Origin: a virus
Virus record (IMG/VR): IMGVR_UViG_3300032038_000077
Coordinates: 708 to 64,707 of that record
Direction: 5' to 3' (one strand)
DNA length: 64,000 bases
Every line of letters begins with the position of its first letter. The stretch's first letter is position 1. Both the position numbers and the translations under genes were made by a program. This document shows, piece after piece, positions 1 to 64,000 of this stretch. Below the pieces are notes generated by a model. The model made no database searches and was not told the origin of the DNA. It worked only from the letters and a program-made list of their open reading frames with translations.

Positions 1-113
1 CGAACAGTGCCAATGCGCGTGTGTCTGAAACAAATGCTAAAGCATATGTTGATAAGGTTACGATTCACTGGGGTTTAGTAAACGATAAACTCTGCATCAT
101 CGGGGAGGAATGA
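1..113 (+). CDS. 3' end of upstream tail-fibre-type gene (partial)
   Basis: Open frame NSANARVSETNAKAYVDK...IIGEE* ends at TGA 111-113 overlapping the next start; SETNAK-like tail fibre repeat. Confidence 0.55.
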   Translation, partial: NSANARVSETNAKAYVDKVTIHWGLVNDKLCIIGEE

Positions 114-1192
114 TTATGAGCATCGTAAACGTAGAGGATTACATGAAACGCCAAACAACGGCGCTCGAAACTATGGCAAAGTCAACAAGCAAGGCAATTA
201 ACCTAACGGGTGATGTTACCGGCTCGGTAACGTATGGGAGTGATGGCACGGCGACGATTAAGACAACGGGAAACAGTGCTGCAAAGCTCACAACAGCAAG
301 AACGATCAGCTTATCCGGCGACGCTACAGGTTCGGTATCGTTTAATGGTTCCAGTAATGTGTCGATTCCGGTCACGCTTGCACGCACGACAGGCTTGACG
401 GATTTGATTCCGGACGGCGCGGCGGCGCATAACTGTCTTTATCGTGGCAAGGACATCACTGCGGATTTCAACTCTGGCAAGATGTCAACGAACATCGCGA
501 ACGGCACGTTTCGCGACATCTTCGTCGGCGACTACATCGACGTGCCCATGACCGTCAACGGCACAAGCATCGGCACGGCACGCTGGCGCGTCGGCGAGTG
601 CGATTACTACTATCGCTCTGGCGATTCGCCGTGCAATACGCACCACGTGCTCATGGTGCCGGACGACGTTCTGGATGTAAATATCCGCATAAACGACACG
701 AACGATACCACGGGCGGCTACCAGGGCATGGAGATGTGGAAAACGACGCTCCCGCTCTACGCGGCGGCCATCAAAGCAGCTTTCGGGACGGGCCATGTGC
801 TTGACCATCATGAACCGATCACGAAAGCTATCAGCGCAGATGCCCCATCCGGCGCGGGCGCTGGCTGGACTGGTTCGGCAACCGGTTGGGAATGGCAGAC
901 GGTATCGGCGAACCTCTTTAACGAGGTTATGGTCTACGGTACGCGCGTGTTCAGCTGTTCCGCTTTCGACGTAGGCACCGGCAAAAAGCAGGTCGCTCTG
1001 TTCGCGCTCAACCACGAGTCGACCATCGCTGGCTATCGCGGCAACCACAGCGACCGTAGATGGTATTGGTTGCGAGCGGTCGCTTCTGCGTCGCGTTTCT
1101 GCATTGCCGCCTACTACGGTGACGCGTACTCCTACGACGCGTCGAATTGCGACGATTGGGGCGGCGTCCGCCCGTATTTCCTGCTCCGTTGA
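110..1192 (+). CDS. Tail fibre / receptor-binding protein with DGR-target-type (C-type lectin-like) C-terminus
   Basis: N-terminal 'ARTISLSGDATGSVSFNGSSNVSI' fibre repeats; C-terminal WYWLR...GGVRPYFLLR motif typical of DGR target proteins; position just before lysis genes. Confidence 0.85.
   Translation: MIMSIVNVEDYMKRQTTALETMAKSTSKAINLTGDVTGSVTYGSDGTATIKTTGNSAAKLTTARTISLSGDATGSVSFNGSSNVSIPVTLARTTGLTDLIPDGAAAHNCLYRGKDITADFNSGKMSTNIANGTFRDIFVGDYIDVPMTVNGTSIGTARWRVGECDYYYRSGDSPCNTHHVLMVPDDVLDVNIRINDTNDTTGGYQGMEMWKTTLPLYAAAIKAAFGTGHVLDHHEPITKAISADAPSGAGAGWTGSATGWEWQTVSANLFNEVMVYGTRVFSCSAFDVGTGKKQVALFALNHESTIAGYRGNHSDRRWYWLRAVASASRFCIAAYYGDAYSYDASNCDDWGGVRPYFLLR
1061..1192 (+). other. Putative DGR variable region (VR)
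   Basis: Run of NNC/NNT codons (att gcc gcc tac tac ggt gac gcg tac tcc tac gac...aat tgc gac gat) between invariant W/R/G/V/P codons, as expected from AAC/AAT template mutagenesis. Confidence 0.7.
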
Positions 1193-1206
1193 CCTTCCCC
1201 GCGCCC

Positions 1207-1368
1207 CTTGTGGCGGCTGGCGAAATGAGCCCTAAGGCGTTCACTGAACAGTATCGGTCTTGGCGCGGCGATAAGCGGCGTTATGATGCACAGGGCGTCA
1301 ACCAAAGCACAGATAAACTTTTCCGTGAATTGAAAGAAGGTATATGTAATGGCAGAAAAGACGTATGA
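1207..1368 (+). pseudogene. C-terminal remnant of a DGR reverse transcriptase
   Basis: LVAAGEMSPKAFTEQYRSWRGDKRRYDAQGVNQSTDKLFREL resembles the DGR-RT thumb (GEM...SWxG...D.LF); no RT palm/YxDD domain present. Confidence 0.7.
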
Positions 1369-1795
1369 AGATATTGAAAAAGAAATGCAGGAACGGCACA
1401 GAAAGGAACAGGAAGTCATTGACCTGCGCTTAAAATTGTCGAGCCAGTATTCTGATTTAGGAGACTGGAAGATTAGCAAGATTCAAGAAGCAAGACTTCT
1501 CGGTAATCCTGACCCGTATGATATTGATGACCTGCATGAAAAGCGTCAGGCAATCCGTGAACAAATCGAAGCGTTGCAGAAGGAACTGAACGCATTGACG
1601 GTTGATGATAAGCCAGACGAGGTAGCTATGCTTGACCGTCAGTATGAGGCTGATAAGCGCGCGCTAAAAGATCAGTATGTTGAAGCCGTGGCAATGAACG
1701 ATTCTGAAACGGCGAAGGATGTACAAGCTCAATTAGCAGAACTTAACACAGCATATGACGAGCAGTATAAAGCATTGATTACGGAGGGTGAGTAA
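1349..1795 (+). CDS. Phage protein, tail-fibre-associated (chaperone-like) coiled-coil
   Basis: 148 aa ORF with RBS, between the fibre and lysis genes. Confidence 0.6.
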   Translation: MAEKTYEDIEKEMQERHRKEQEVIDLRLKLSSQYSDLGDWKISKIQEARLLGNPDPYDIDDLHEKRQAIREQIEALQKELNALTVDDKPDEVAMLDRQYEADKRALKDQYVEAVAMNDSETAKDVQAQLAELNTAYDEQYKALITEGE

Positions 1796-1796
1796 G

Positions 1797-1916
1797 ATGG
1801 CATTTAGAGTAAAGAGACGGTGTATCAGATGTCGCAAAGAATTGCGTGAGGACGGAACGTGTCAGAATCCGAAATGCGTGCGATATGTACCGCCGAAAGA
1901 TGAAACCAAAAGATAA
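1797..1916 (+). CDS. Small Cys-rich peptide (39 aa)
   Basis: RBS GGAGGGTG; MAFRVKRRCIRCRKELREDGTCQNPKCVRY..., CxxC...CxxxxC. Confidence 0.55.
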   Translation: MAFRVKRRCIRCRKELREDGTCQNPKCVRYVPPKDETKR

Positions 1917-1989
1917 CCCGGTCACAGATACGAAAGACGAAGCAGAAGTAACTACCGATACCGATATCACAAAATAAGAAGGTGAGTCT

Positions 1990-2400
1990 ATGGACAAAAT
2001 TCCAGACGGCGCAATATTGCAGATGTTCTTAACATTTGCGTCCGTCGTCATGTCGGGAATCATGGCATACTTAGTCTATCTCATGCAACAACGTTCTCGT
2101 GCAAAAGACTTGCAGGATGCGCAACGTGAAAGAGAGCGAGAGCGCAAGGACGAGCAGAGAGAGCAAGAGCGTGCGGCGATTAAGGATGGTATTTGTGCCG
2201 TTCTGCGAGATCATATTATACGCACATGTATGCAGTGTGAGCGCGATGGATACGCACCGGTTCAGGTAAGTGAATCCGTATCTCATATGGTATCGTCGTA
2301 TTTTACATTAGGCGGTAACGGCGTAGTCAAATCGGTATACGAAGGATTCCGCAAATTACCGCACGTACACCCGGAAGGGGGTAATGCTAATGGTAAATAA
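1990..2400 (+). CDS. Holin-like / lysis-module membrane protein
   Basis: One N-terminal TM helix, coiled coil and YxxLGGNG motif common upstream of Firmicute phage endolysins. Confidence 0.65.
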   Translation: MDKIPDGAILQMFLTFASVVMSGIMAYLVYLMQQRSRAKDLQDAQRERERERKDEQREQERAAIKDGICAVLRDHIIRTCMQCERDGYAPVQVSESVSHMVSSYFTLGGNGVVKSVYEGFRKLPHVHPEGGNANGK

Positions 2401-2590
2401 GTTACGGTCAATACGTATCAACGCAAACGACATTCTAAATGACATTATCGTTGTCGGCTTACTCATTTACCTCTTCATTGGCAATGGTGTATACGAAATC
2501 CAAAGTGCTATTGTCGGCGGTCTTATCTGTTGTTTGCGCATGGGTACAAGTGACGGGAACAAGCACAAAGAGGAAGGGGAACAAAAGTAA
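2384..2590 (+). CDS. Putative holin (two short hydrophobic segments)
   Basis: Hydrophobic segments and charged C-tail, abutting the endolysin. Confidence 0.55.
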   Translation: MLMVNKLRSIRINANDILNDIIVVGLLIYLFIGNGVYEIQSAIVGGLICCLRMGTSDGNKHKEEGEQK

Positions 2591-3186
2591 TGAGAGAAAC
2601 TACGATCAAAGAGATTCGCGAACTTGCTAATTATTGCCGTGAAGATGTATGGGATGCGGCGCAGGATGAGCCGAAGATTTACCTACATTGGAGTGCCGGT
2701 CATTACAATAGTAAGTTTGATGATTACCATATCAACATTACAGGTGATGGCAAGTTGTGGCTTGCGACGGATGACTTTTCAGAAAAACTTGCGCATACGT
2801 GGCGTCGTAATAGCGGTGCAGTAGGCATCAGTTTGTGTTGTTGCTACGGTGCAACCACGAACGGATTAGGCAACGAGCCGCCTACGGCAAAGCAGATCGA
2901 AATGATGGCACAGGCTATTGTTGCGGTAGCTGATGGACTGTGGTTGACAATTGATAAGAAGCACGTTATGACGCACGGTGAGGCGGCAGACAGTGAAGAC
3001 GGTGTTTATACATGGAGTGCCGATGATTGCTATGGCCCTCGTACCACTTGCGAACGTTGGGATTTAGAGTTCCTTGAAACGGAAGAATCGCCGTCATTTA
3101 ATCCGTGGGCAACGGATGGTTCTCGTGGCGGCGATGTGTTGCGCGGCAAAGCTAACTGGTATCGTAATGCGTGGAAGGACAAATAA
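2590..3186 (+). CDS. Endolysin, N-acetylmuramoyl-L-alanine amidase (Amidase_2-like)
   Basis: IYLHWSAG...YHINI...HTWRRNSGAVGISLC...THGE Zn-amidase motifs. Confidence 0.85.
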   Translation: MRETTIKEIRELANYCREDVWDAAQDEPKIYLHWSAGHYNSKFDDYHINITGDGKLWLATDDFSEKLAHTWRRNSGAVGISLCCCYGATTNGLGNEPPTAKQIEMMAQAIVAVADGLWLTIDKKHVMTHGEAADSEDGVYTWSADDCYGPRTTCERWDLEFLETEESPSFNPWATDGSRGGDVLRGKANWYRNAWKDK

Positions 3187-3218
3187 CCTTATAACCATTA
3201 CGATAGCAGGTGTAGCGT

Positions 3219-3563
3219 ATGAGCAGTCAAGAGAAGCGAAGGGAAAAGCAGTGGGATAAACGTGAGCGCGAAGGATGGCTAGGCATGATTCCGTTACGCG
3301 ATGTCTATGGCTTTGAGATGTTCCTCGTCCATAATCGCGGATGGCATAGCTCCGTCACGAATGGACTTGAACTTCTTCATGTGTATGGTTATGGCATGGA
3401 ATTGATAGTCAGTTGGAATCCGGTAAAGCATAGAACAAAACTAAACTGTCGTCGGCTCATGGCTCTGTGGCACGCATACGATACGTTTCATAGAGACGAT
3501 CTATGGATAGGAAGGAATCTGGTAAGAAATGAACAAGAACGATATTCTCAAAGTAATTGGTGA
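3219..3563 (+). CDS. Hypothetical protein
   Basis: 114 aa ORF with RBS downstream of the lysin. Confidence 0.55.
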   Translation: MSSQEKRREKQWDKREREGWLGMIPLRDVYGFEMFLVHNRGWHSSVTNGLELLHVYGYGMELIVSWNPVKHRTKLNCRRLMALWHAYDTFHRDDLWIGRNLVRNEQERYSQSNW

Positions 3564-3810
3564 TGAGTTTGAAAACGTCGCTAAGGACGAAATGAAGAAA
3601 GCACTTAAAGCAATTGACTTACGGGACTTACGTCCTATTATTCAGGAACACGTTGACACGTTAACGAAACCCCTTGATGATGAAGCGGATAAAACAGATT
3701 CGCTCTGGGTTAAGATTCGCAACCGCGTGTATGTCAGACTGATTAATGCAATGGTTGATACGATTACCAATGCGGCAAAGGCAGAGCTTGACAGAGTAGT
3801 AAATAAGTAA
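3529..3810 (+). CDS. Hypothetical helical protein ending the lysis operon
   Basis: 93 aa ORF overlapping the previous gene. Confidence 0.6.
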   Translation: MNKNDILKVIGDEFENVAKDEMKKALKAIDLRDLRPIIQEHVDTLTKPLDDEADKTDSLWVKIRNRVYVRLINAMVDTITNAAKAELDRVVNK

Positions 3811-3816
3811 TATAAT
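3788..3816 (+). promoter_or_regulatory. Perfect sigma70/sigmaA promoter P1
   Basis: TTGACA(3788)-17 bp-TATAAT(3811). Confidence 0.85.
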
Positions 3817-3822
3817 ATATAG

Positions 3823-3932
3823 TACGGTTGGATATAGTTTTATTGCTCTTGTGTTTCGTGCAATGACCTCGTAATGCGGTTACGGTCAATGGTAAGGTGG
3901 TTCCTGCTCGGTAGGGAATCACCTTATTTTTA
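3823..3932 (+). ncRNA. Putative sRNA 1 (about 110 nt)
   Basis: Follows P1; internal hairpins; ends in TAAGGTGGTTCC/GGAATCACCTTA + T-tract terminator; no RBS-led ORF. Confidence 0.6.
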
Positions 3933-3945
3933 TGTCTTATTAATA

Positions 3946-3974
3946 TTGACATTATTGCGTGTAACTATTATAAT
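3946..3974 (+). promoter_or_regulatory. Perfect sigma70/sigmaA promoter P2
   Basis: TTGACA(3946)-17 bp-TATAAT(3969). Confidence 0.85.
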
Positions 3975-3980
3975 AAACTT

Positions 3981-4056
3981 ATCAGTTCCCCGCCTGACCG
4001 GTTCATGGTCGGCGGTAAATAGCCTGCCCGTCAACCACTAAGCAGGCTATTTTTTA
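3981..4056 (+). ncRNA. Putative sRNA 2 (about 75 nt)
   Basis: Hairpin CCGCCTGACC/GGTCGGCGG, then terminator AATAGCCTGC/GCAGGCTATT + T-tract. Confidence 0.65.
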
Positions 4057-4140
4057 TTGCGCGGATTTAAACCGCGTGTTATACTTACCATAAAAGAAAC
4101 GAATATGGCTCGCCTACATATCGTAGCGGGCTATTTTATT
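4057..4140 (+). ncRNA. Promoter P3 plus putative sRNA 3 (about 50 nt)
   Basis: TTGCGC-17 bp-TATACT with extended TG (4057-4085), then GGCTCGC/GCGGGCT hairpin + ATTTTATT. Confidence 0.45.
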
Positions 4141-4148
4141 ACCCCTGC

Positions 4149-4405
4149 TTGTCTGCATTTTGTCTGCATCGGTTTTAATTGTGGCTATGTTTCGCTATGG
4201 TGCGATAAAACGATCAATGCCCTTATAATCCAGTAACGATAAGGGTTTGCGGCGTTTTGTATGTCGCACTGTGACGCGCTAAATATATGCGTCAAATAAT
4301 GATAAGTAATAACAATAAAGGCGATAACCCTAGTAATCATAAGGTTGTCGCCTTTCTTTGTCTGCATTTTGTCTGCATCAAGCATTTGTCTGCATGTTGT
4401 CTGCG
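4149..4405. repeat. attP region with integrase arm-type sites
   Basis: TTGTCTGCA at 4149, 4160, 4358, 4369, 4386 and a variant at 4397 (pairs 11 bp apart) flanking about 190 bp at the 3' end of int. Confidence 0.75.
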
Positions 4406-5589
4406 CTGATAGCACGGTTGATAATGTTCACGGTATCGCGCTTCATGCCGTCAGTTTCATGCGTGTACAGGTCTTCGGTAATCATTACGCTCTTATGTCC
4501 TAGCCGTGCGGCAACGTCCTTAGCGCGTGCGCCTAACTCAATGAGTTGTGTCGCGTGCGTGTGCCTAAAGGAATGGGCATTGCAACCGCATCGTTTGAGT
4601 ACTGTCTTGATTGTGTCGTGATGTATCGGTCTGCCATTGTCATTCGTGCAGACAAAATCCATCTTTGTCCAGTTAGCATACTTATCCATGAGTGACCGTG
4701 ACCCGTTCTTTGTCTCGCCCGTATTCGGTGACACATAGACGACTTGGTAACTATCGCCTTGTATGTCCTCATTCGCTTTCTGACGGGCGTTCCACTCTCT
4801 TAGTAGGTTCAGCAGGGCGTTGTCAATATAAAACGTCCTAACGCTACTTTGCGTCTTAGGCGGTGCAACATTATAGCCGCGCGAGATATGTATAAGTTGT
4901 TGCTTAACCGTTATCATGCCGGTACTTAGATTAACACAATCCCATGTCAATCCTAGCACTTCGCCAATCCTCATGCCGGTATGGTACATAATCGCAAGCG
5001 GAATACGCGCATACTTACACCGGCTCTTAGCGACAGAATCCATAATGTCAAGGTATCTTTCGTGTGAGATAACTTCCCTCTTAACTATGGCATCCGGAGC
5101 AAGGCGCGGTATTGGAATGTTGCTTACCGGATTTGACGCGATTAATTCCGCAGGGTATACGGCATAATGAAAGGCAGAACTTAGCATCGCACGCATAAAC
5201 CGGATACTGCCACGCGACAGACCGTCTTTATAAAAGCTATCAAACAAGTCAACGATATTTCTAGGACGAACGTCCTGCACATACATATCGCCAATGACCG
5301 CAATGACACGCTTGATTCCGCTACGATACTGACGCAACGTAAGCGGACGAATGGATGACTGTTTCTTGTCTAACCATTGCGGCAGGTAATCGCATAGTTT
5401 TATTTTATTTGAAAATACTATACCACCGTGCGTGTAACTGTTATACACTTTCATACCCGCATCATACGCATCCTGCTTGGTAGGATATCCACCTTTCTCA
5501 ATGACCTTACGCTTGCCGTCAATGGTGCGTCCTGCCTCAAAGATATATGAGTATGTCTTGCCGCGTTTGCGTGTACGAACCGTTGCCAT
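4378..5589 (-). CDS. int: Tyrosine integrase (arm-binding, SAM-like and catalytic domains)
   Basis: TGMRIGEVLGL, HSFRHTHAT, RLGH...Y catalytic motifs; 403 aa. Confidence 0.95.
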   Translation of the reverse strand: MATVRTRKRGKTYSYIFEAGRTIDGKRKVIEKGGYPTKQDAYDAGMKVYNSYTHGGIVFSNKIKLCDYLPQWLDKKQSSIRPLTLRQYRSGIKRVIAVIGDMYVQDVRPRNIVDLFDSFYKDGLSRGSIRFMRAMLSSAFHYAVYPAELIASNPVSNIPIPRLAPDAIVKREVISHERYLDIMDSVAKSRCKYARIPLAIMYHTGMRIGEVLGLTWDCVNLSTGMITVKQQLIHISRGYNVAPPKTQSSVRTFYIDNALLNLLREWNARQKANEDIQGDSYQVVYVSPNTGETKNGSRSLMDKYANWTKMDFVCTNDNGRPIHHDTIKTVLKRCGCNAHSFRHTHATQLIELGARAKDVAARLGHKSVMITEDLYTHETDGMKRDTVNIINRAISADNMQTNA

Positions 5590-5607
5590 AACAATGACTT
5601 CCTTTCT

Positions 5608-5718
5608 ATAGCAAGCGAAGAATTTCAGGACGTGGTATAATAAATATGTAAACCAACTTACTGTTATTTCCGCTGTTCTTTTTGCATCAACCCCGGCACA
5701 TGTTGTCGGGGTTTTTGT
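5608..5718 (+). ncRNA. Antisense promoter-terminator mini-unit between int and immA
   Basis: Extended -10 TGGTATAAT (5633-5641), then about 70 nt ending in AACCCCGGCA/TGTCGGGGTT + T-tract. Confidence 0.5.
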
Positions 5719-5736
5719 TGTGCAGTTTCCTTCCTA

Positions 5737-6183
5737 TTAATAGCGGTACATGATTCTGCCTAGGATATCATGCACCTCATGCGGATTCGGATTCTTTTGT
5801 CGCAATAGTTCGACAATCCTTTCGTCATCAATATCTTCGGAATAAGCGAGCAGGCGTATCGCAAACTCATTCGCTTCTGCTTCTATATGTGACGGTATGT
5901 AGTATGACTGTTCCGCGTGTAGGCAGTAGTTGTATCCGCTGTGTAGTCTAGCGTGTCCGATCTCGTGGCATAGCGTTACCTTCTGTTCCTCATATGACAG
6001 TTTGTCATTGAGCACGATGTACTTGCGGCGCAGGACACGGACAAGGAAACCGTTGATCTTATCCGGTAACGGCGCGTGCAAGATGTTGATGTTAAGGTAG
6101 GATGTTAACAGGAAAGGATTTGCCGTGCCATACTTTTCGACTAGATGACGAACGCGCACGCGAATGTTAAACACGACAACCAC
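5737..6183 (-). CDS. ImmA/IrrE-family metallopeptidase (anti-repressor)
   Basis: HEIGH zinc motif, EAEANEFA; adjacent to the repressor. Confidence 0.9.
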   Translation of the reverse strand: MVVVFNIRVRVRHLVEKYGTANPFLLTSYLNINILHAPLPDKINGFLVRVLRRKYIVLNDKLSYEEQKVTLCHEIGHARLHSGYNYCLHAEQSYYIPSHIEAEANEFAIRLLAYSEDIDDERIVELLRQKNPNPHEVHDILGRIMYRY

Positions 6184-6186
6184 CTC

Positions 6187-6573
6187 TCAATCTTTCTTCC
6201 TTTTATTAAGACGTTTCGCATCCCAAAAGGCAAGCGACAAAGCCGCGTGTAGTTTTTGTCTATCGTTTTCGTCAATATGGTACATGTTCCCGTCGAACAT
6301 GATGTCCGTCCTATTTATGAAGGAAGTCAAGTCAGCGGGTATCTTCTGTTCGGGCGTGATCTTGTCGTGGCGTTCTTCTGTCCTTCCTAGCAGGTAGTCA
6401 ACCGACGTGCGGTAGAAGTCAGCAAAGCGAACCAACATATCGCCTTTCGGGATACGTCTGTTCTTTTCATAGTTAGCAAGCGTGCTCTGTTCGATATTCA
6501 TCTTGTCACATACATATTGTTGTGTGTATCCGTATTCATTCCGTAGGCATTGTAGCCGACCGCCGATATCCAT
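6187..6573 (-). CDS. CI/ImmR-like XRE repressor
   Basis: HTH_3 (LRNEYGYTQQYVC...STLANYEKNRRIP...SVDYLLG); RBS upstream of MDIGG. Confidence 0.9.
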   Translation of the reverse strand: MDIGGRLQCLRNEYGYTQQYVCDKMNIEQSTLANYEKNRRIPKGDMLVRFADFYRTSVDYLLGRTEERHDKITPEQKIPADLTSFINRTDIMFDGNMYHIDENDRQKLHAALSLAFWDAKRLNKRKKD

Positions 6574-6709: not shown

Positions 6710-6898
6710 GTGAAGAATCGGCTGAAAGAGTTGAGAGAACAGGCCAACCTAACACAAGAGCAGTTAGGCGCGGCCATTGGCAAGAGTCAAGAGATTATCT
6801 CATTATATGAGAACGGCTTTCGTATGCCGAACATAAAGGTATGTATTCTACTTGCGCAACGATTCGGTTGCAGAGTAGAGGATATTTTTGTGCCTTGA
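6710..6898 (+). CDS. Cro-like HTH regulator
   Basis: NRLKELREQANLTQEQLG...YENG; divergent from the repressor; GTG start after AAAGGGGG. Confidence 0.85.
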   Translation: MKNRLKELREQANLTQEQLGAAIGKSQEIISLYENGFRMPNIKVCILLAQRFGCRVEDIFVP

Positions 6899-7163: not shown

Positions 7164-7487
7164 ATGAACCAAAAAGGATTAGGGATTGATGTTAATCGCG
7201 GTTTGTCGCCGTTGTTCCATGACGCAATGAAGGAACTGGACGCGGCGATTGATTCCCTTCCTATTAAAAGGGAAGAGAAAATCAACACGGCGCAAAAGGC
7301 CGCGGCAACTATCGCCTTAGGCAACGTCGAGTCGTTCCAGTATGGAATGGCGTTCGGCGCGTTCCTAGCGATGAAGAAGGGTATCGCGTTCTTCGCGGGC
7401 AACAATGATATTCCCGATAAGGAATACGAGAACTTATGCAAGGAGTTCGAGATAACCTATGACGCGATCAAAGAATTACGGGGGTGA
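7164..7487 (+). CDS. Hypothetical protein
   Basis: RBS AAGGGG before MNQKGLG. Confidence 0.6.
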   Translation: MNQKGLGIDVNRGLSPLFHDAMKELDAAIDSLPIKREEKINTAQKAAATIALGNVESFQYGMAFGAFLAMKKGIAFFAGNNDIPDKEYENLCKEFEITYDAIKELRG

Positions 7488-7614
7488 AGAAATGAGACGC
7501 GATTACACGCGCATCAGTCTGTTCACATTCATGGTTCTTGCATCTGCTATGGGTTGCGGGTTTATCTGGTTAGTTCGCTATCTGCTGACTGACCTTCTGT
7601 GAAAGGGGCTTTAT

Positions 7615-60884: not shown

Positions 60885-63800
60885 ATGGGTAGTCATCATG
60901 GTAAATCTCGTGGCAAGCTGATTGGTTCAATCCTTGTCGGCGTTGCATCGGCATTTATTCCGGGCGCGTTTGGTGTTGCAGGACACGCATTTAACTTTGG
61001 GCGATTCATGCTTGGCGCATCGCTCTTTAGTAGCGTATGGTCGGCAACACATCGGGCGAAGCAGACAGGCAACCTATCCATTAACCGATTCGATAGGGCG
61101 CAGGAAACGGCAAGCGGACAAGGCGATCTTCCGGTAGTCTATGGCGAGCGAATGATTTCCGGTAATCAAACCTTCCACGAAACGGATGCGGATGCGCAAA
61201 CATTACATAAACACGTCGTTCTTTGTGAGGGCGGTATTCAAGGACTTGTGTCTGTTACCGCAGGTGATCTTCTTATACCGACGAATAACGAAACGCAAGG
61301 CACGGTATTTACGGTACAAAACCTAAAGTATTCCGATGCAACGTTTCGGATTAAAGATAAGCATATCTACATCCACGCAAATGGTAAAGACCGTTCGTTC
61401 TATCTGTGTAACGAAAAAGATACAAGCGGTTCTTACTATAGCTATCAGGTTACGGTCAGTAGCCTAATCACTTATATCAATAGTTTAGGCGAAGGATGGC
61501 AGGCATTTCCAACGGCAACCACTTCTAAGTATCCGGGTGACTGTTGGACGGAAGCGCAGGCCAATTCAAATGTATCAACGTACACGGAAGTTGTTAAGCC
61601 GAAAGATGCACCTCATGGTGTTAAGAAAGGAACTACATGGACGGACGATGCGTTCTTTTATGAGATTATTGATTCGTATTTCGTGCCACTCCAAAAAGAT
61701 GACCTGTATTTTCGGTTAACTATTAAGAAAAGCTCGCTTGCGCGTGGCGAATGGGCGTGTTATAAAGACCCGATCAAAGTCAAATGCGACACGGTAAAAG
61801 GCGGCACGAAATATTATTTCCATGATTGTGAGACACCGGGAAACTACGAGAAGGTTGGCGGTTATCCGATGATGGCGTGGCTTGACCTCACCTTTACTAC
61901 GGCAAGTGACTTTGCAGGAAACCCGTCAATTTCTTGTGTTGTTAAGGGACGCAAGGTATACGACATCCGCACTGGCCTCACGGAATATTCCACGAATCCG
62001 GCGATGTGCCTTAGAGACTTTATCTTGTCTGAGCGTTATGGTTGCGGATTGTGGTTCGATGCGGAAGACCTTGATGAAGACTCATGGGCAGAGGCCGCCG
62101 ACTATTGCGATGAAACGATCACCTTCCTTAATGGTGACGGCGCATTGGTTCAAGCGAAACGCTATGAGTTAAACATTGTCATTGATACAAAGCGTACCGC
62201 GCTTGAATGGGTGCAGGAAATTCTTGCTAACTTCTGCGGATACCTTGTTTACTCTGACGGCAAACTCAAACTCAAAATCGAAAAGCAGGAACCAATATCC
62301 TACAAGTTTAACGACGGCAATTGTTTCGACCTGTCTATTGAACCGCTCAAATTGTCCGAGACGCCGAACCGTTATGAAGTATCCCTTATTGACCCGCGTA
62401 ACAATTGGGCGGCTATTAAAGCACTCTGTGAAGATTTTGCCGATCAGAAATTACGTCAGCGCATCGTAACAAAGACGGTTAATCTGGAAGGTGTAACGTC
62501 GCAGAATCAGGCACTTAGACTTGCAAGATTCTATCGTGACTATAACCTTGTGTGTCCGTTGCAGATGTCGTTTAAAACCGGTATGCAAGGAATGAATCTT
62601 GAACCGGGCGATGTTGTTACGATCACGTATCATGGCGTATTCACGGATATGCCGATTCGCATTGCTGAAATCAAGGAAACGGAAAACGGTACATACGAAA
62701 TCAGCGGGCGTCAGTACAATGATACAATCTATGGCGATGCTCTTGGCGGTGGTATCCATTGGTATAATTATTCGACAAAGAAAGATTTGCCAACACCTTC
62801 CGAATATGCGGCTAGTTTCAAGCCGGACATCCCGACAAATGTAAAAGCGGAAACGCGTTATCGTCAGTATGCAGACGGCAGTGTTGGGTACGAGCTTGTT
62901 GTTACTTACGACCTTCCGCAACGATTTGATACAGAAACCGGTCTTGTTTATTACAAACACAATAACGAGATTGGTGAACAGATTGTCTTTGTTGAGGGTA
63001 TGCCCGCCGACGAAGCAGGATATTCAAGCGAGTGGAAGTACGCCGGTGATTCGCCAACGCAGTGCATCATCCCGGATGTTAAGCTAGGCGATATTTATAA
63101 GATTAAGGTACTAACGCGCAATACCGCAGGCAAGACTTCTAATGAAAGTAAAATCCTTACTGTTAAGATAAATCCGAAAGCAACCGTTCCCGCAATGCCA
63201 ACCGATCTCACTTACGACTTTTCCGAGTCGTTCAAATTCATGTGGCGTGATGTTGAAAGCACGGACGCTATCTATTATGAGGTGGTACAAAATAACAAGA
63301 CGATTGCGAAGGTAACAGGTTTGTCTGCCGTGGTAAAACTTACTAAGCGCAAGGGGACAGTTAAGGTATATGCGGTCAACACATTGGGCAAACGTAGTCA
63401 TCCTGCAACGATTGATTACAATGTCCCGAAACCGGATGCGCCTGTTCTTAGATTTCAGGAAGTTCCTGTTGGGTGTAAAGTAATTGCCAACGATTTTCCC
63501 TCTACGGTTCATCAAATGAAGCTAAAGATCGCGGGGAACACACAGACAATTACCACGAGTAATTATATTTATCAAGGCAAGGCAGGTATTTTTGATGTGT
63601 CTGCTTGCTATGTAGATTTGTTCGGTGATGGTAACTGGTCGCCAATATATCAAATGACCGTCAAACCAACACTTGACCCGTCCTATATAGCGGAAGAAAC
63701 GATCACTCTCAATATGGTAGATAAGACGCTTAAAGAAGCGGTTGCGGATGCGCAAGAAGCAATCCCACGTCTTGACGGCATCGACACCACGCTTGACGGC

Positions 63801-64000
63801 ATCGACACCACGATTACAGGGCTGAAACAGACCGACACGGAACTGTCAAATACCATTGTTGAGAACAAAAAAGCGCAGGACGGGCAGAACAGCACGTTTG
63901 CCTCGCAGATAAAGCAGAACGCAAATAATGTGACATCCATCGTGGAAAACCTCAACAATGAAGACCCGTCCTCATCGGCCTACAAGTCAATCACGAAGCT
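60885..64000 (+). CDS. Host-specificity / central tail tip protein (gpJ-like), runs off the window
   Basis: MGSHHGK...LPVVYGER...HVVLCEGGI...VKGRKVYD...NPAMCLRD; absent from the ORF track because it has no stop in the window. Confidence 0.88.
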   Translation, partial: MGSHHGKSRGKLIGSILVGVASAFIPGAFGVAGHAFNFGRFMLGASLFSSVWSATHRAKQTGNLSINRFDRAQETASGQGDLPVVYGERMISGNQTFHETDADAQTLHKHVVLCEGGIQGLVSVTAGDLLIPTNNETQGTVFTVQNLKYSDATFRIKDKHIYIHANGKDRSFYLCNEKDTSGSYYSYQVTVSSLITYINSLGEGWQAFPTATTSKYPGDCWTEAQANSNVSTYTEVVKPKDAPHGVKKGTTWTDDAFFYEIIDSYFVPLQKDDLYFRLTIKKSSLARGEWACYKDPIKVKCDTVKGGTKYYFHDCETPGNYEKVGGYPMMAWLDLTFTTASDFAGNPSISCVVKGRKVYDIRTGLTEYSTNPAMCLRDFILSERYGCGLWFDAEDLDEDSWAEAADYCDETITFLNGDGALVQAKRYELNIVIDTKRTALEWVQEILANFCGYLVYSDGKLKLKIEKQEPISYKFNDGNCFDLSIEPLKLSETPNRYEVSLIDPRNNWAAIKALCEDFADQKLRQRIVTKTVNLEGVTSQNQALRLARFYRDYNLVCPLQMSFKTGMQGMNLEPGDVVTITYHGVFTDMPIRIAEIKETENGTYEISGRQYNDTIYGDALGGGIHWYNYSTKKDLPTPSEYAASFKPDIPTNVKAETRYRQYADGSVGYELVVTYDLPQRFDTETGLVYYKHNNEIGEQIVFVEGMPADEAGYSSEWKYAGDSPTQCIIPDVKLGDIYKIKVLTRNTAGKTSNESKILTVKINPKATVPAMPTDLTYDFSESFKFMWRDVESTDAIYYEVVQNNKTIAKVTGLSAVVKLTKRKGTVKVYAVNTLGKRSHPATIDYNVPKPDAPVLRFQEVPVGCKVIANDFPSTVHQMKLKIAGNTQTITTSNYIYQGKAGIFDVSACYVDLFGDGNWSPIYQMTVKPTLDPSYIAEETITLNMVDKTLKEAVADAQEAIPRLDGIDTTLDGIDTTITGLKQTDTELSNTIVENKKAQDGQNSTFASQIKQNANNVTSIVENLNNEDPSSSAYKSITK
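63771..63812 (+). repeat. Perfect 21-bp tandem duplication
   Basis: CTTGACGGCATCGACACCACG x2 (LDGIDTT x2). Confidence 0.9.

What the first reader, a model, noticed from the sequence alone, without database searches (positions are those of the whole stretch)
1061..1368. Frozen DGR: target gene fused to an RT stump by an apparent microhomology deletion
Seen: the tail-fibre gene ends in a DGR-style VR. Fourteen bp after its stop the sequence reads LVAAGEM...YRSWRG...DKLFREL, like the last 50 aa or so of a DGR reverse transcriptase. No TR, avd or RT palm was seen in the window. The junction GCGCCCCTTGTGG reads both as the left half of a GC hairpin (gcgcccc-ttgt-gg...) and as RT codons CTT GTG G. 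Known: phage DGRs are typically ordered target(VR)-hairpin-avd-TR-RT. Inference: the engine was deleted between two CTTGTGG copies, fixing one receptor variant. This could be a recurrent off-switch or a cheater lineage.
Basis: partly seen in the sequence, partly recalled or inferred. Interest (0 to 1): 0.72.

Follow-up and report, generated by a model that had tools for sequence, protein, structure and literature searches.

The report
Phage hypermutation cassette deleted, stump left
This phage once rewrote the tip of its tail fibre with a diversity-generating retroelement, but a deletion of about 1.85 kb removed that machinery and left only the last 53 codons of its reverse transcriptase, a loss that related phages have suffered repeatedly at other breakpoints.

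Summary
The fibre gene (110-1192) ends in a DGR-type variable region. Fourteen bases after its stop, an open frame (1207-1368) is 55-57% identical to the last 51-53 residues of full-length reverse transcriptases (RTs). In relatives those RTs sit in the order fibre, hairpin, avd, TR, RT, and then the same downstream gene. The 64.7-kb record holds no RT domain, no template repeat (TR) and no avd. The hairpin after the VR is half gone.

The junction is real. A different phage contig (L082) carries it, and contigs from two further sequencing runs bridge it.

Loss is recurrent. Of 136 distinct related loci, 74 keep an intact cassette. Eight distinct junctions were mapped, and each removes 80-98% of the cassette. 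Up to four more stumps were seen but not mapped.

The claimed CTTGTGG microhomology is plausible at 4-7 nt but unproven, because the exact parent was not retrievable. "One frozen variant" needs a qualifier: the same scar occurs with at least two different fibre alleles.

Decayed DGRs are already in print, and this scan has logged several on other DNA. I rate it a well-resolved new member of a known kind, of moderate interest.

The parts
110..1192 (+). Tail-fibre (receptor-binding) gene, 360 aa, the former DGR target
   Evidence: Tail-fibre PHROG hits in the N-terminal part. DUF6273 at the C-terminus, at the Pfam cut-off. 549 homologues at E <= 0.001.
1075..1174 (+). Variable region (VR): the stretch that relatives' template repeats copy. 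Its G+C-rich 3' end (1160-1174) is the IMH-like block conserved in all VRs and TRs.
   Evidence: Alignment with 7 TR/VR pairs of relatives. Differs at 7 of 13 all-A TR columns and 0 of 32 invariant non-A columns. Hypervariable protein columns.
1201..1213 (+). Left arm (1201-1207) and loop of the hairpin after the VR, with only 2 bases of the right arm. 1207-1213 is the junction zone that can be read as hairpin or as RT codons.
   Evidence: Relatives' sequences after the VR. Folds. Contigs in runs X1 and X6 that continue after 1207 into a complete right arm.
1207..1368 (+). Reverse-transcriptase stump: last 53 codons plus stop. There is an internal ATG at 1226 (a 47-aa ORF that is on record as a predicted protein).
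   Evidence: 55-57% identity to the C-termini of full-length RTs. No Pfam or NCBIfam hit of its own. P0121.
1349..1795 (+). Downstream gene (148 aa, unknown function, phrog_17180). Its start overlaps the end of the RT frame, as in intact relatives.
1797..1916 (+). Small Cys-rich ORF conserved after the 148-aa gene
   Evidence: tblastn hits in L006, L007, L008, L018 and L024.
1990..2400 (+). 136-aa protein with an N-terminal hydrophobic stretch. Its position suggests a lysis role (phrog_4105, function unknown).
2590..3186 (+). Endolysin (N-acetylmuramoyl-L-alanine amidase)
   Evidence: phrog_5867 at E 2e-38. Amidase_2 at 24.8 bits, just under the 26-bit cut-off.

Best explanation
The locus is the scar of a diversity-generating retroelement (DGR).

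An ancestor of this phage carried the usual order: fibre gene with VR, IMH, hairpin, avd, TR, RT, and then the late or lysis genes. Its RT copied the TR with errors at adenines and wrote the copy into the fibre tip.

A single deletion of about 1.85 kb then joined the loop of the hairpin after the VR (about 1207-1213) to codon -53 of the RT. It removed the right hairpin arm, avd, the TR and about 87% of the RT, including its catalytic motif.

The join most likely used a short repeat of 4-7 nt (CTTG or CTTGTGG) shared by the hairpin loop and the RT codons Leu-Val-Ala. That would fit replication slippage or microhomology-mediated end joining.

With no template, no enzyme and no complete target hairpin, this genome can no longer diversify its fibre tip. 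The VR it carries is the last variant written.

The RT stump survives because it holds the ribosome-binding site and the overlapping start of the next gene. Selection sets the right-hand limit of tolerated deletions there, and the left-hand limit at the fibre's stop codon.

Shown: the homology, the absence of the parts, the junction in independent contigs, and independent deletions in relatives.

Inferred: the mechanism of the deletion, the length of the microhomology, the reason the stump is kept, and the loss of function.
For: - RT-tail homology, and the same gene next door in relatives.
- Intact cassettes in 74 of 136 distinct viral and metagenome loci, and in 50 of 79 bacterial-genome loci.
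- 93% of VR/TR mismatches (1182 of 1275) fall at TR adenines.
- The window's VR deviates only at A columns of relatives' TRs.
- No RT, TR or avd in the record.
- The hairpin is lost.
- The same junction is in L082, which differs by 42 bases in 1022-1166 but by only 3 in 1167-1902.
- Contigs of runs X2 (1158-1290) and X3 (1167-1902) bridge the junction.
- Upstream of the Leu codon the RT frame reads FPAP, where relatives have a conserved K-x-L-A motif. RT homology therefore starts exactly at 1207.
- Independent deletions at other breakpoints: L083 (avd codon 28 to RT codon about -17), L008/L096 against its 95-98% identical intact relative L093 (8-nt microhomology), L122 against L004, L026/L129, L022, L136 and L025.
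- Every mapped deletion keeps at least 37 nt upstream of the next gene's start.
Against: - The true parent sequence was not found. Three exact-pattern scans of viral and bacterial-genome contigs with the RT-side sequence gave nothing. The breakpoints are therefore placed only by comparison with relatives at 55-70% identity.
- The nearest contigs with an intact hairpin read CTTGC, not CTTGT, in the loop. That shortens the supposed microhomology.
- The record is about 91% complete, so a second cassette in the missing part is not formally excluded. By comparison with L082, the missing piece is about 1.6 kb inside the tail gene that the contig end cuts, and L082's 8.9 kb holds no TR or RT either.
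- Loss of function is inferred, not measured.
- RT intactness in the survey rests on an ORF of at least 300 aa with a [YF]xDD motif. Only L003, L006 and the L004 fragments were checked with an HMM.
Confidence: 0.9

Rival explanations
1. The VR is not frozen. The scar-bearing lineage keeps changing its fibre tip, either by recombination with co-circulating DGR-positive relatives or by a relative's DGR acting in trans during co-infection. This is "borrowed diversity".
For: - The same scar occurs with different fibre and VR alleles. Window and L082 differ by 42 bases up to 1166 and by only 3 in the next 736 bases. A third fibre end appears in X1 record 7.
- Scar-bearing contigs and contigs with an intact hairpin occur in the same runs, X1 and X6.
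- The IMH-like block 1160-1174 is retained and is conserved across the family.
Against: - The window/L082 differences run through the whole fibre gene (about 14% divergence over 276-1902). They include synonymous-type changes upstream of the VR. That fits ordinary recombination of fibre modules, not retrohoming.
- In the Bordetella phage BPP-1, the hairpin after the VR is required for efficient retrohoming (PMC3240598, abstract read). Here it is destroyed.
- No read-level VR variation could be examined, because only contigs were available.
Confidence: 0.3
2. The deletion is an assembly artefact: a collapse or a chimeric join in a metagenome assembly.
For: VR and TR are repeats that can confuse assemblers. 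The record is a metagenome-derived viral contig.
Against: - The join is not between VR and TR. It lies between a hairpin loop and the RT 3' end, with at most 7 shared bases.
- The identical join is in L082, which has a different fibre gene.
- Contigs of two further runs bridge it. One of those runs may be the source sample.
- Relatives show other clean joins.
Confidence: 0.02
3. The window shows the ancestral, cassette-free state, and relatives gained the DGR by insertion.
For: A sub-clade of fibre homologues (L037, L047, L116, L119, L127, L131) shows no cassette and no remnant.
Against: An insertion cannot explain three things here:
- 53 in-frame codons homologous to the end of the RT.
- Half a hairpin.
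- A VR that departs from relatives' TRs only at adenine columns.
Confidence: 0.02
4. A working DGR elsewhere in this phage (in the missing ~9%) or in the host still serves this VR.
For: The record is incomplete. DGRs with remote targets are known (PMC12629997, passages read).
Against: - There is no RT or TR in 64.7 kb.
- The gap maps inside a tail gene by comparison with L082.
- The target hairpin is broken.
Confidence: 0.05

Closest known systems
Bordetella phage BPP-1 DGR (mtd VR, IMH, hairpin/cruciform, avd, TR, brt). The gene order is recalled from my own knowledge. The hairpin requirement is from PMC3240598 (abstract read).
   Same: Intact relatives share its layout: a receptor-binding gene with a C-terminal VR, a G+C-rich IMH, a hairpin 10-15 nt downstream, avd, TR and RT on one strand, with adenine-specific VR/TR differences.
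   Different: The window has only the VR, the IMH, half the hairpin and the last 53 RT codons. Its fibre domain is DUF6273, and its hosts are Selenomonadaceae-type anaerobes rather than Bordetella.
Targets left without RT and TR in Treponema denticola isolates (PMC4891356, passages read), and remnant TR-VR homology or a degraded cassette in cyanobacteria (PMC7517822, passages read)
   Same: DGR target genes that outlive their diversification machinery. [quoted passage not shown]
   Different: Those are bacterial chromosomes, described at the level of presence or absence. Here the scar is in a phage, is mapped nearly to the base, and is one of eight mapped independent deletions in one phage family.
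Earlier dead-DGR findings of this scan on other genomes (e1-3264232, e1-3573979, e1-3641986, e1-5857889)
   Same: A tail-fibre VR with an avd stub and/or an RT C-terminal stub and no TR. Relatives with other breakpoints. In one case the fibre tip still differs between otherwise identical viruses.
   Different: They are on other genomes. I did not check whether any belongs to this phage family.

Membership tests
Diversity-generating retroelement (functional cassette) | A reverse transcriptase with an intact catalytic domain next to the target | tested here: not met
   No RVT_1 match in the 64.7-kb record. Only the last 53 codons remain. Relatives' RTs match RVT_1 at E 4e-12 and 7.5e-13.
Diversity-generating retroelement (functional cassette) | A template repeat that matches the VR, with differences at TR adenines | tested here: not met
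   No second copy of 1041-1192 in the window or in L001 at word size 7. Relatives: 1182 of 1275 mismatches at TR adenines.
Diversity-generating retroelement (functional cassette) | An accessory gene (avd) between the VR and the TR | tested here: not met
   15 relatives' avd proteins give no tblastn match in window 1-6000. L003's avd matches phrog_3206 at E 2.5e-5.
Diversity-generating retroelement (functional cassette) | A target site made of an IMH at the VR's 3' end plus a hairpin just downstream | tested here: not met
   The IMH-like block 1160-1174 is present and conserved. The hairpin is reduced to its left arm and loop: -5.2 kcal/mol, z 0.19, against -12 to -15 in relatives.
DGR target protein (C-terminal variable ligand-binding domain) | A C-terminal domain with hypervariable positions that coincide with TR adenines | tested here: met
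   DUF6273 at the cut-off. Hypervariable columns between invariant anchors. 7 of 13 all-A columns against 0 of 32 invariant non-A columns. The C-type-lectin fold was not tested.
DGR remnant / deletion scar | Fragments of cassette genes in the original order and orientation, with close relatives that hold the full cassette at the same place | tested here: met

The most novel reading that the evidence does not exclude
The DGR carries its own fragile site. The hairpin that marks the target, together with short G+C-rich repeats shared with the RT 3' end, makes the cassette delete again and again, sometimes at the very same bases.

The window-type junction appears behind two different left hairpin arms: the window and L082 have one, and X1 record 7 has the other.

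The resulting engine-less phages persist beside DGR-positive relatives and renew their fibre tips by swapping fibre modules with them. If so, DGR presence in a phage population would be a balanced polymorphism of diversifiers and free-riders, not simple decay.
Probability: 0.15. Interest if true: 0.6.

Novelty: new member of a known kind. Interest (0 to 1): 0.4.

Why it matters
It gives a near base-level example of how phage DGRs die. One family of rumen and gut phages shows the whole range together:
- intact cassettes;
- RTs broken in place;
- eight mapped deletions that each strip out nearly the whole engine while sparing the fibre gene and the start of the next gene.

This matters in three ways:
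- DGR surveys count only cassettes with an RT, so they miss such loci.
- Models of when hypermutation pays need loss rates (for example bioRxiv 10.64898/2026.02.18.706561, abstract read).
- For host-range prediction, a VR-bearing fibre does not by itself mean an actively diversifying phage.

The finding does not reveal a new mechanism.

Tried and rejected
- Pfam, NCBIfam and PHROG scans of the stump peptide gave nothing. It is too short and lies outside the RT palm models, so homology had to be shown against relatives' full RTs.
- A phmmer search of the 53-aa peptide against 1.84 billion representatives gave only 5 hits at E <= 0.001. None of them was a recognisable RT. Two were odd chimeras (see Noticed in passing).
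- A distant blastn search of 1-3200 against GenBank phages found only a short fibre-repeat match in two Vibrio phages.
- The first viral-contig scan with the single fibre protein found one distant locus. The alignment-based scan was needed.
- Exact-pattern scans for the RT-side sequence, aimed at the true parent, gave 0 matches in viral contigs and 0 in bacterial genome contigs.
- My first RT criterion ([YF][MALVCI]DD) wrongly flagged 22 loci with YTDD or YKDD as lacking an RT. One search corrected this.
- L145 was first counted as cassette-less but has avd, a TR and the RT start.
- The promoter and terminator scan of 900-2100 gave no more sites than shuffles.
- The notes of this scan hold nothing on this genome.
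- Only Logan contigs were available, not raw reads.
- Two literature searches for DGR loss or remnants found no paper describing recurrent mapped deletions of phage DGR cassettes. Most subscription-journal papers are not in that library.

Full report
**What the window is.** The window is positions 708-64707 of a 64.7-kb linear viral record, estimated 91% complete. Its left end holds, on the + strand:
- a 360-aa tail-fibre gene (110-1192);
- a short open frame (1207-1368);
- a 148-aa gene (1349-1795);
- a small Cys-rich ORF;
- a 136-aa protein with a hydrophobic N-terminus (1990-2400);
- an amidase endolysin (2590-3186).

**The fibre and its VR.** The fibre's N-terminal part matches tail-fibre PHROGs. 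Its C-terminus matches DUF6273 exactly at Pfam's cut-off.

A search of the large protein collection gave 549 homologues at E <= 0.001. The named ones come from a Selenomonadaceae MAG and an uncultured Dialister.

I aligned 35 of them. The bodies are 45-81% identical to the window's protein. The last ~35 residues form a patchwork of invariant anchors (F, A, G, A, A-S, G-x-R-P-x-F-L) and freely varying positions. That is the signature of a DGR variable region.

**What relatives have at this place.** Two alignment-based scans fetched 160 related loci, 80 from viral contigs and 80 from metagenome contigs.

L003 is typical:
- the fibre ends at 6825;
- a G+C hairpin follows;
- a 175-aa ORF at 6899-7426 matches "Avd protein of DGR" (phrog_3206, E 2.5e-5);
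- a 99-nt repeat of the fibre's end lies at 7455-7553, and all 13 of its differences from the VR are at repeat adenines;
- a 402-aa ORF at 7639-8847 matches RVT_1 (E 4e-12) and phrog_1423 (E 1e-54) and carries YMDD;
- a homologue of the window's 148-aa gene starts 8 nt before the RT's stop, followed by lysis genes.

**The survey counts.** I dropped 7 of the 160 loci because my C-terminal fibre query did not hit them on the + strand (L002, L039, L128, L135, L151, L159, L160). The other 153 collapse to 136 distinct loci.

After correcting my RT motif and reclassifying L145, the 136 split as follows:

| Class | Loci |
|---|---|
| TR plus an RT ORF of at least 300 aa with [YF]xDD | 74 |
| TR present but no long RT ORF (L004, L021) | 2 |
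| TR present, contig ends before the RT ends | 16 |
| No TR and no RT, with at least 800 nt downstream | 18 |
| Cannot tell, or fibre cut by the contig end | 26 |

Over the 91 loci where my scan found a TR, 1182 of 1275 VR/TR mismatches lie at TR adenines. L145's TR was seen only and is not among them.

In 79 loci from bacterial genomes (not de-duplicated), 50 are intact and 18 have neither a TR nor an RT. The nearest named hosts are Anaerovibrio slackiae, Selenomonadaceae MAGs, Megasphaera and Dialister.

**The stump.**
- The frame 1207-1365 matches the extreme C-terminus of these RTs. It is 55% identical over 51 residues to L003's RT (E 3e-18) and 57% over 53 residues to L089's (E 1e-16).
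- In the first set of 80 loci it matches 32. In those that keep the cassette, the match lies about 1.8-1.9 kb downstream of the fibre stop and just before the 148-aa gene's homologue.
- Relatives read K-x-L-A-x-L-V-A-A-G-x-M at this point. The window reads F-P-A-P-L-V-A-A-G-E-M. RT homology therefore begins at the Leu codon at 1207.
- The bases before 1207 are the left arm of the hairpin that intact relatives have after the VR.
- That hairpin folds at -12 to -15 kcal/mol in relatives (z -2.5 to -3.7). It no longer folds in the window (-5.2 kcal/mol, z 0.19).

**The engine is absent.**
- No RVT_1 match in the record.
- No VR-like repeat at word size 7.
- No avd remnant.

Yet the window's VR differs from seven relatives' TRs at 7 of 13 columns where all seven have A, and at 0 of 32 columns where all seven share another base. 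It was written by adenine mutagenesis before the engine was lost.

Measured against L003 and L089, the missing stretch is about 1.85-1.9 kb.

**Is the junction real?**
- L082, a metagenome contig, has exactly the same junction. It differs from the window at 42 positions in 1022-1166 and at only 3 positions in 1167-1902. Its fibre is about 14% divergent overall, and similarity ends at 1902.
- Contigs from coded runs of four studies were laid on 300-2300. A 231-nt contig of X2 bridges the junction (1158-1290). Its upstream loose end is the L082-type VR.
- A 5.8-kb contig of X3 also bridges it (1167-1902).
- One of these runs may be the source of the window or of L082, so they are not all independent. 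Even so, the join is not an assembler's accident. It shares at most 7 bases, and it sits behind different fibre genes.

**How the break may have formed.** Some relatives' loops read CCCCTTGTGGGG (L024, L031, L059, L085).

In runs X1 and X6, contigs that share the window's left arm continue after 1207 as CTTGC followed by a perfect right arm. With such a parent, the overlap would be about 4 nt.

The exact parent was not found. I therefore put the microhomology at 4-7 nt and treat it as inferred.

A clean precedent exists in the family. L008/L096 is 95-98% identical to the intact L093 on both sides of a 1.79-kb deletion. The ends of that deletion share the 8-nt GCGCGGCG, which lies once in avd and once in the RT's W-R-G-D codons.

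**Loss is recurrent.** Eight different junctions were mapped:

| Locus | Left breakpoint | Right breakpoint |
|---|---|---|
| Window / L082 | hairpin loop | RT codon -53 |
| L083 (downstream block identical to the window's) | avd codon 28 | RT codon about -17 |
| L008 / L096 | avd codon about 45 | RT codon -53 |
| L122 (against L004) | avd codon 38 | RT codon -39 |
| L026 / L129 | avd | RT about -76 to -98 |
| L025 | avd codon 29 | RT codon about -26 (tblastn; about 68 nt by DNA) |
| L136 | just after the hairpin | about 57 nt before the RT stop |
| L022 | at the fibre stop | 37 nt before the RT stop |

L016, L107, L137 and the bacterial-genome locus L208 also show RT-tail remnants. I did not map those.

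Left ends fall 0-176 nt after the fibre stop, and right ends 37-230 nt before the RT stop. Each event removes 80-98% of the interval.

I read the limits as selection. The fibre's stop is on one side. On the other are the ribosome-binding site and the overlapping start of the next gene, both of which lie inside the RT's last codons. This is inference.

Nine of the 18 cassette-less loci show no remnant at all (L037, L047, L104, L115, L116, L119, L127, L131, L147). They may never have had a cassette.

L004 and L021 show another route to inactivation. The TR and avd are intact but the RT is broken.

**Frozen, but only per genome.** The block 1167-1902 is nearly identical in the window, L082 and the X3 contig. 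It holds the IMH, the scar, the stump, the 148-aa gene and the small ORF. The fibre upstream of it differs, and so does the lysis module downstream.

The left boundary coincides with the family-wide conserved IMH and fibre end, which is a natural substrate for homologous recombination.

X1 record 7 joins the same RT stump at the same bases to an L083-like left arm and a third fibre end. With only 30 loose letters visible, I cannot tell a second identical deletion from recombination.

Scar-bearing forms and intact-hairpin forms occur in the same runs.

**Comparison with what is known.** The intact relatives are ordinary phage DGRs of the BPP-1 layout. That layout is recalled from my own knowledge. 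The need for the IMH plus the hairpin is from the abstract of PMC3240598.

Targets that outlive their RT and TR are in print for Treponema denticola isolates (PMC4891356, passages read). Remnant cassettes are in print for cyanobacteria, with the suggestion that components are removed once a good variant is found (PMC7517822, passages read).

My two full-text searches found no description of recurrent, mapped deletions of phage cassettes. That library lacks most subscription journals, so the absence is weak.

This scan has already reported several dead DGRs with avd or RT stubs on other genomes.

**Verdict.** Two caveats apply: the microhomology length is unproven, and the scar is not tied to one fibre variant.

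It is a well-documented new member of a known kind (a decayed DGR), of moderate interest. Its value is the family-wide picture of repeated, near-total cassette deletion.

Noticed in passing
window 1167-1902 versus L082 4905-5640: A 736-nt block (IMH, scar, RT stump, 148-aa gene, small ORF) is 99.6% identical between two phages. Their fibre genes are about 14% divergent, and similarity stops abruptly at 1902. The left edge of the block is exactly the start of the IMH.
   Followed up: partly
run X1, record 7 (laid on window 1206-1394): A contig joins the same RT stump at the same bases to a different left hairpin arm (L083-like) and a fibre ending in LLY instead of LLR. This is either a second identical deletion or recombination within a few bases. 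Only 30 loose letters were visible.
   Followed up: no
The RT is split into a 223-aa and a 135-aa ORF around the catalytic motif. This is inactivation in place rather than by large deletion. L122 is a 94% identical relative that has lost the whole cassette.
   Followed up: partly
L021 7216-9054: avd and a TR are present, but only the first ~226 residues of the RT give a match, and there is no long RT ORF.
   Followed up: no
L016 5577-6687 (= L109, L111, L112): About 1.1 kb of unrelated sequence with an internal inverted repeat lies between the fibre stop and the 148-aa gene's homologue. A 48-residue RT remnant sits at 6409-6552. The cassette may have been replaced rather than simply deleted.
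   Followed up: no
P0122 (100 aa) and P0125 (264 aa): Two database proteins carry an RT-tail-like peptide (49% identity to the stump) at their C-terminus. In P0122 it follows a GidA/FAD-binding N-terminus, and in P0125 a malic-enzyme N-terminal domain. These could be chimeric gene calls or junctions between phage and host DNA.
   Followed up: no
window 1159-1173: The IMH-like block is itself a 6-bp G+C inverted repeat with a 3-nt loop. It is conserved in all aligned VRs and TRs of the family. The terminator scan flagged it, but the scan as a whole found no more sites than shuffles.
   Followed up: no
window 4378-5589 (-) and 60885-63998 (+): A 403-aa ORF that reads like a tyrosine integrase lies just after the lysis genes. 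This is by eye only, from an R...H-x-x-R...Y pattern, and was not searched. A 1038+ aa tail ORF is cut by the contig end. By comparison with L082, about 1.6 kb is missing between the record's end and its start, so the record looks like a permuted, nearly complete temperate-phage genome.
   Followed up: partly
L037, L047, L116, L119, L127, L131 (also L128, L151, L160): A sub-clade of fibre homologues has a common downstream region and no TR, RT, avd or remnant. The loss may be ancient, or the fibre type may never have been coupled to a DGR.
   Followed up: no
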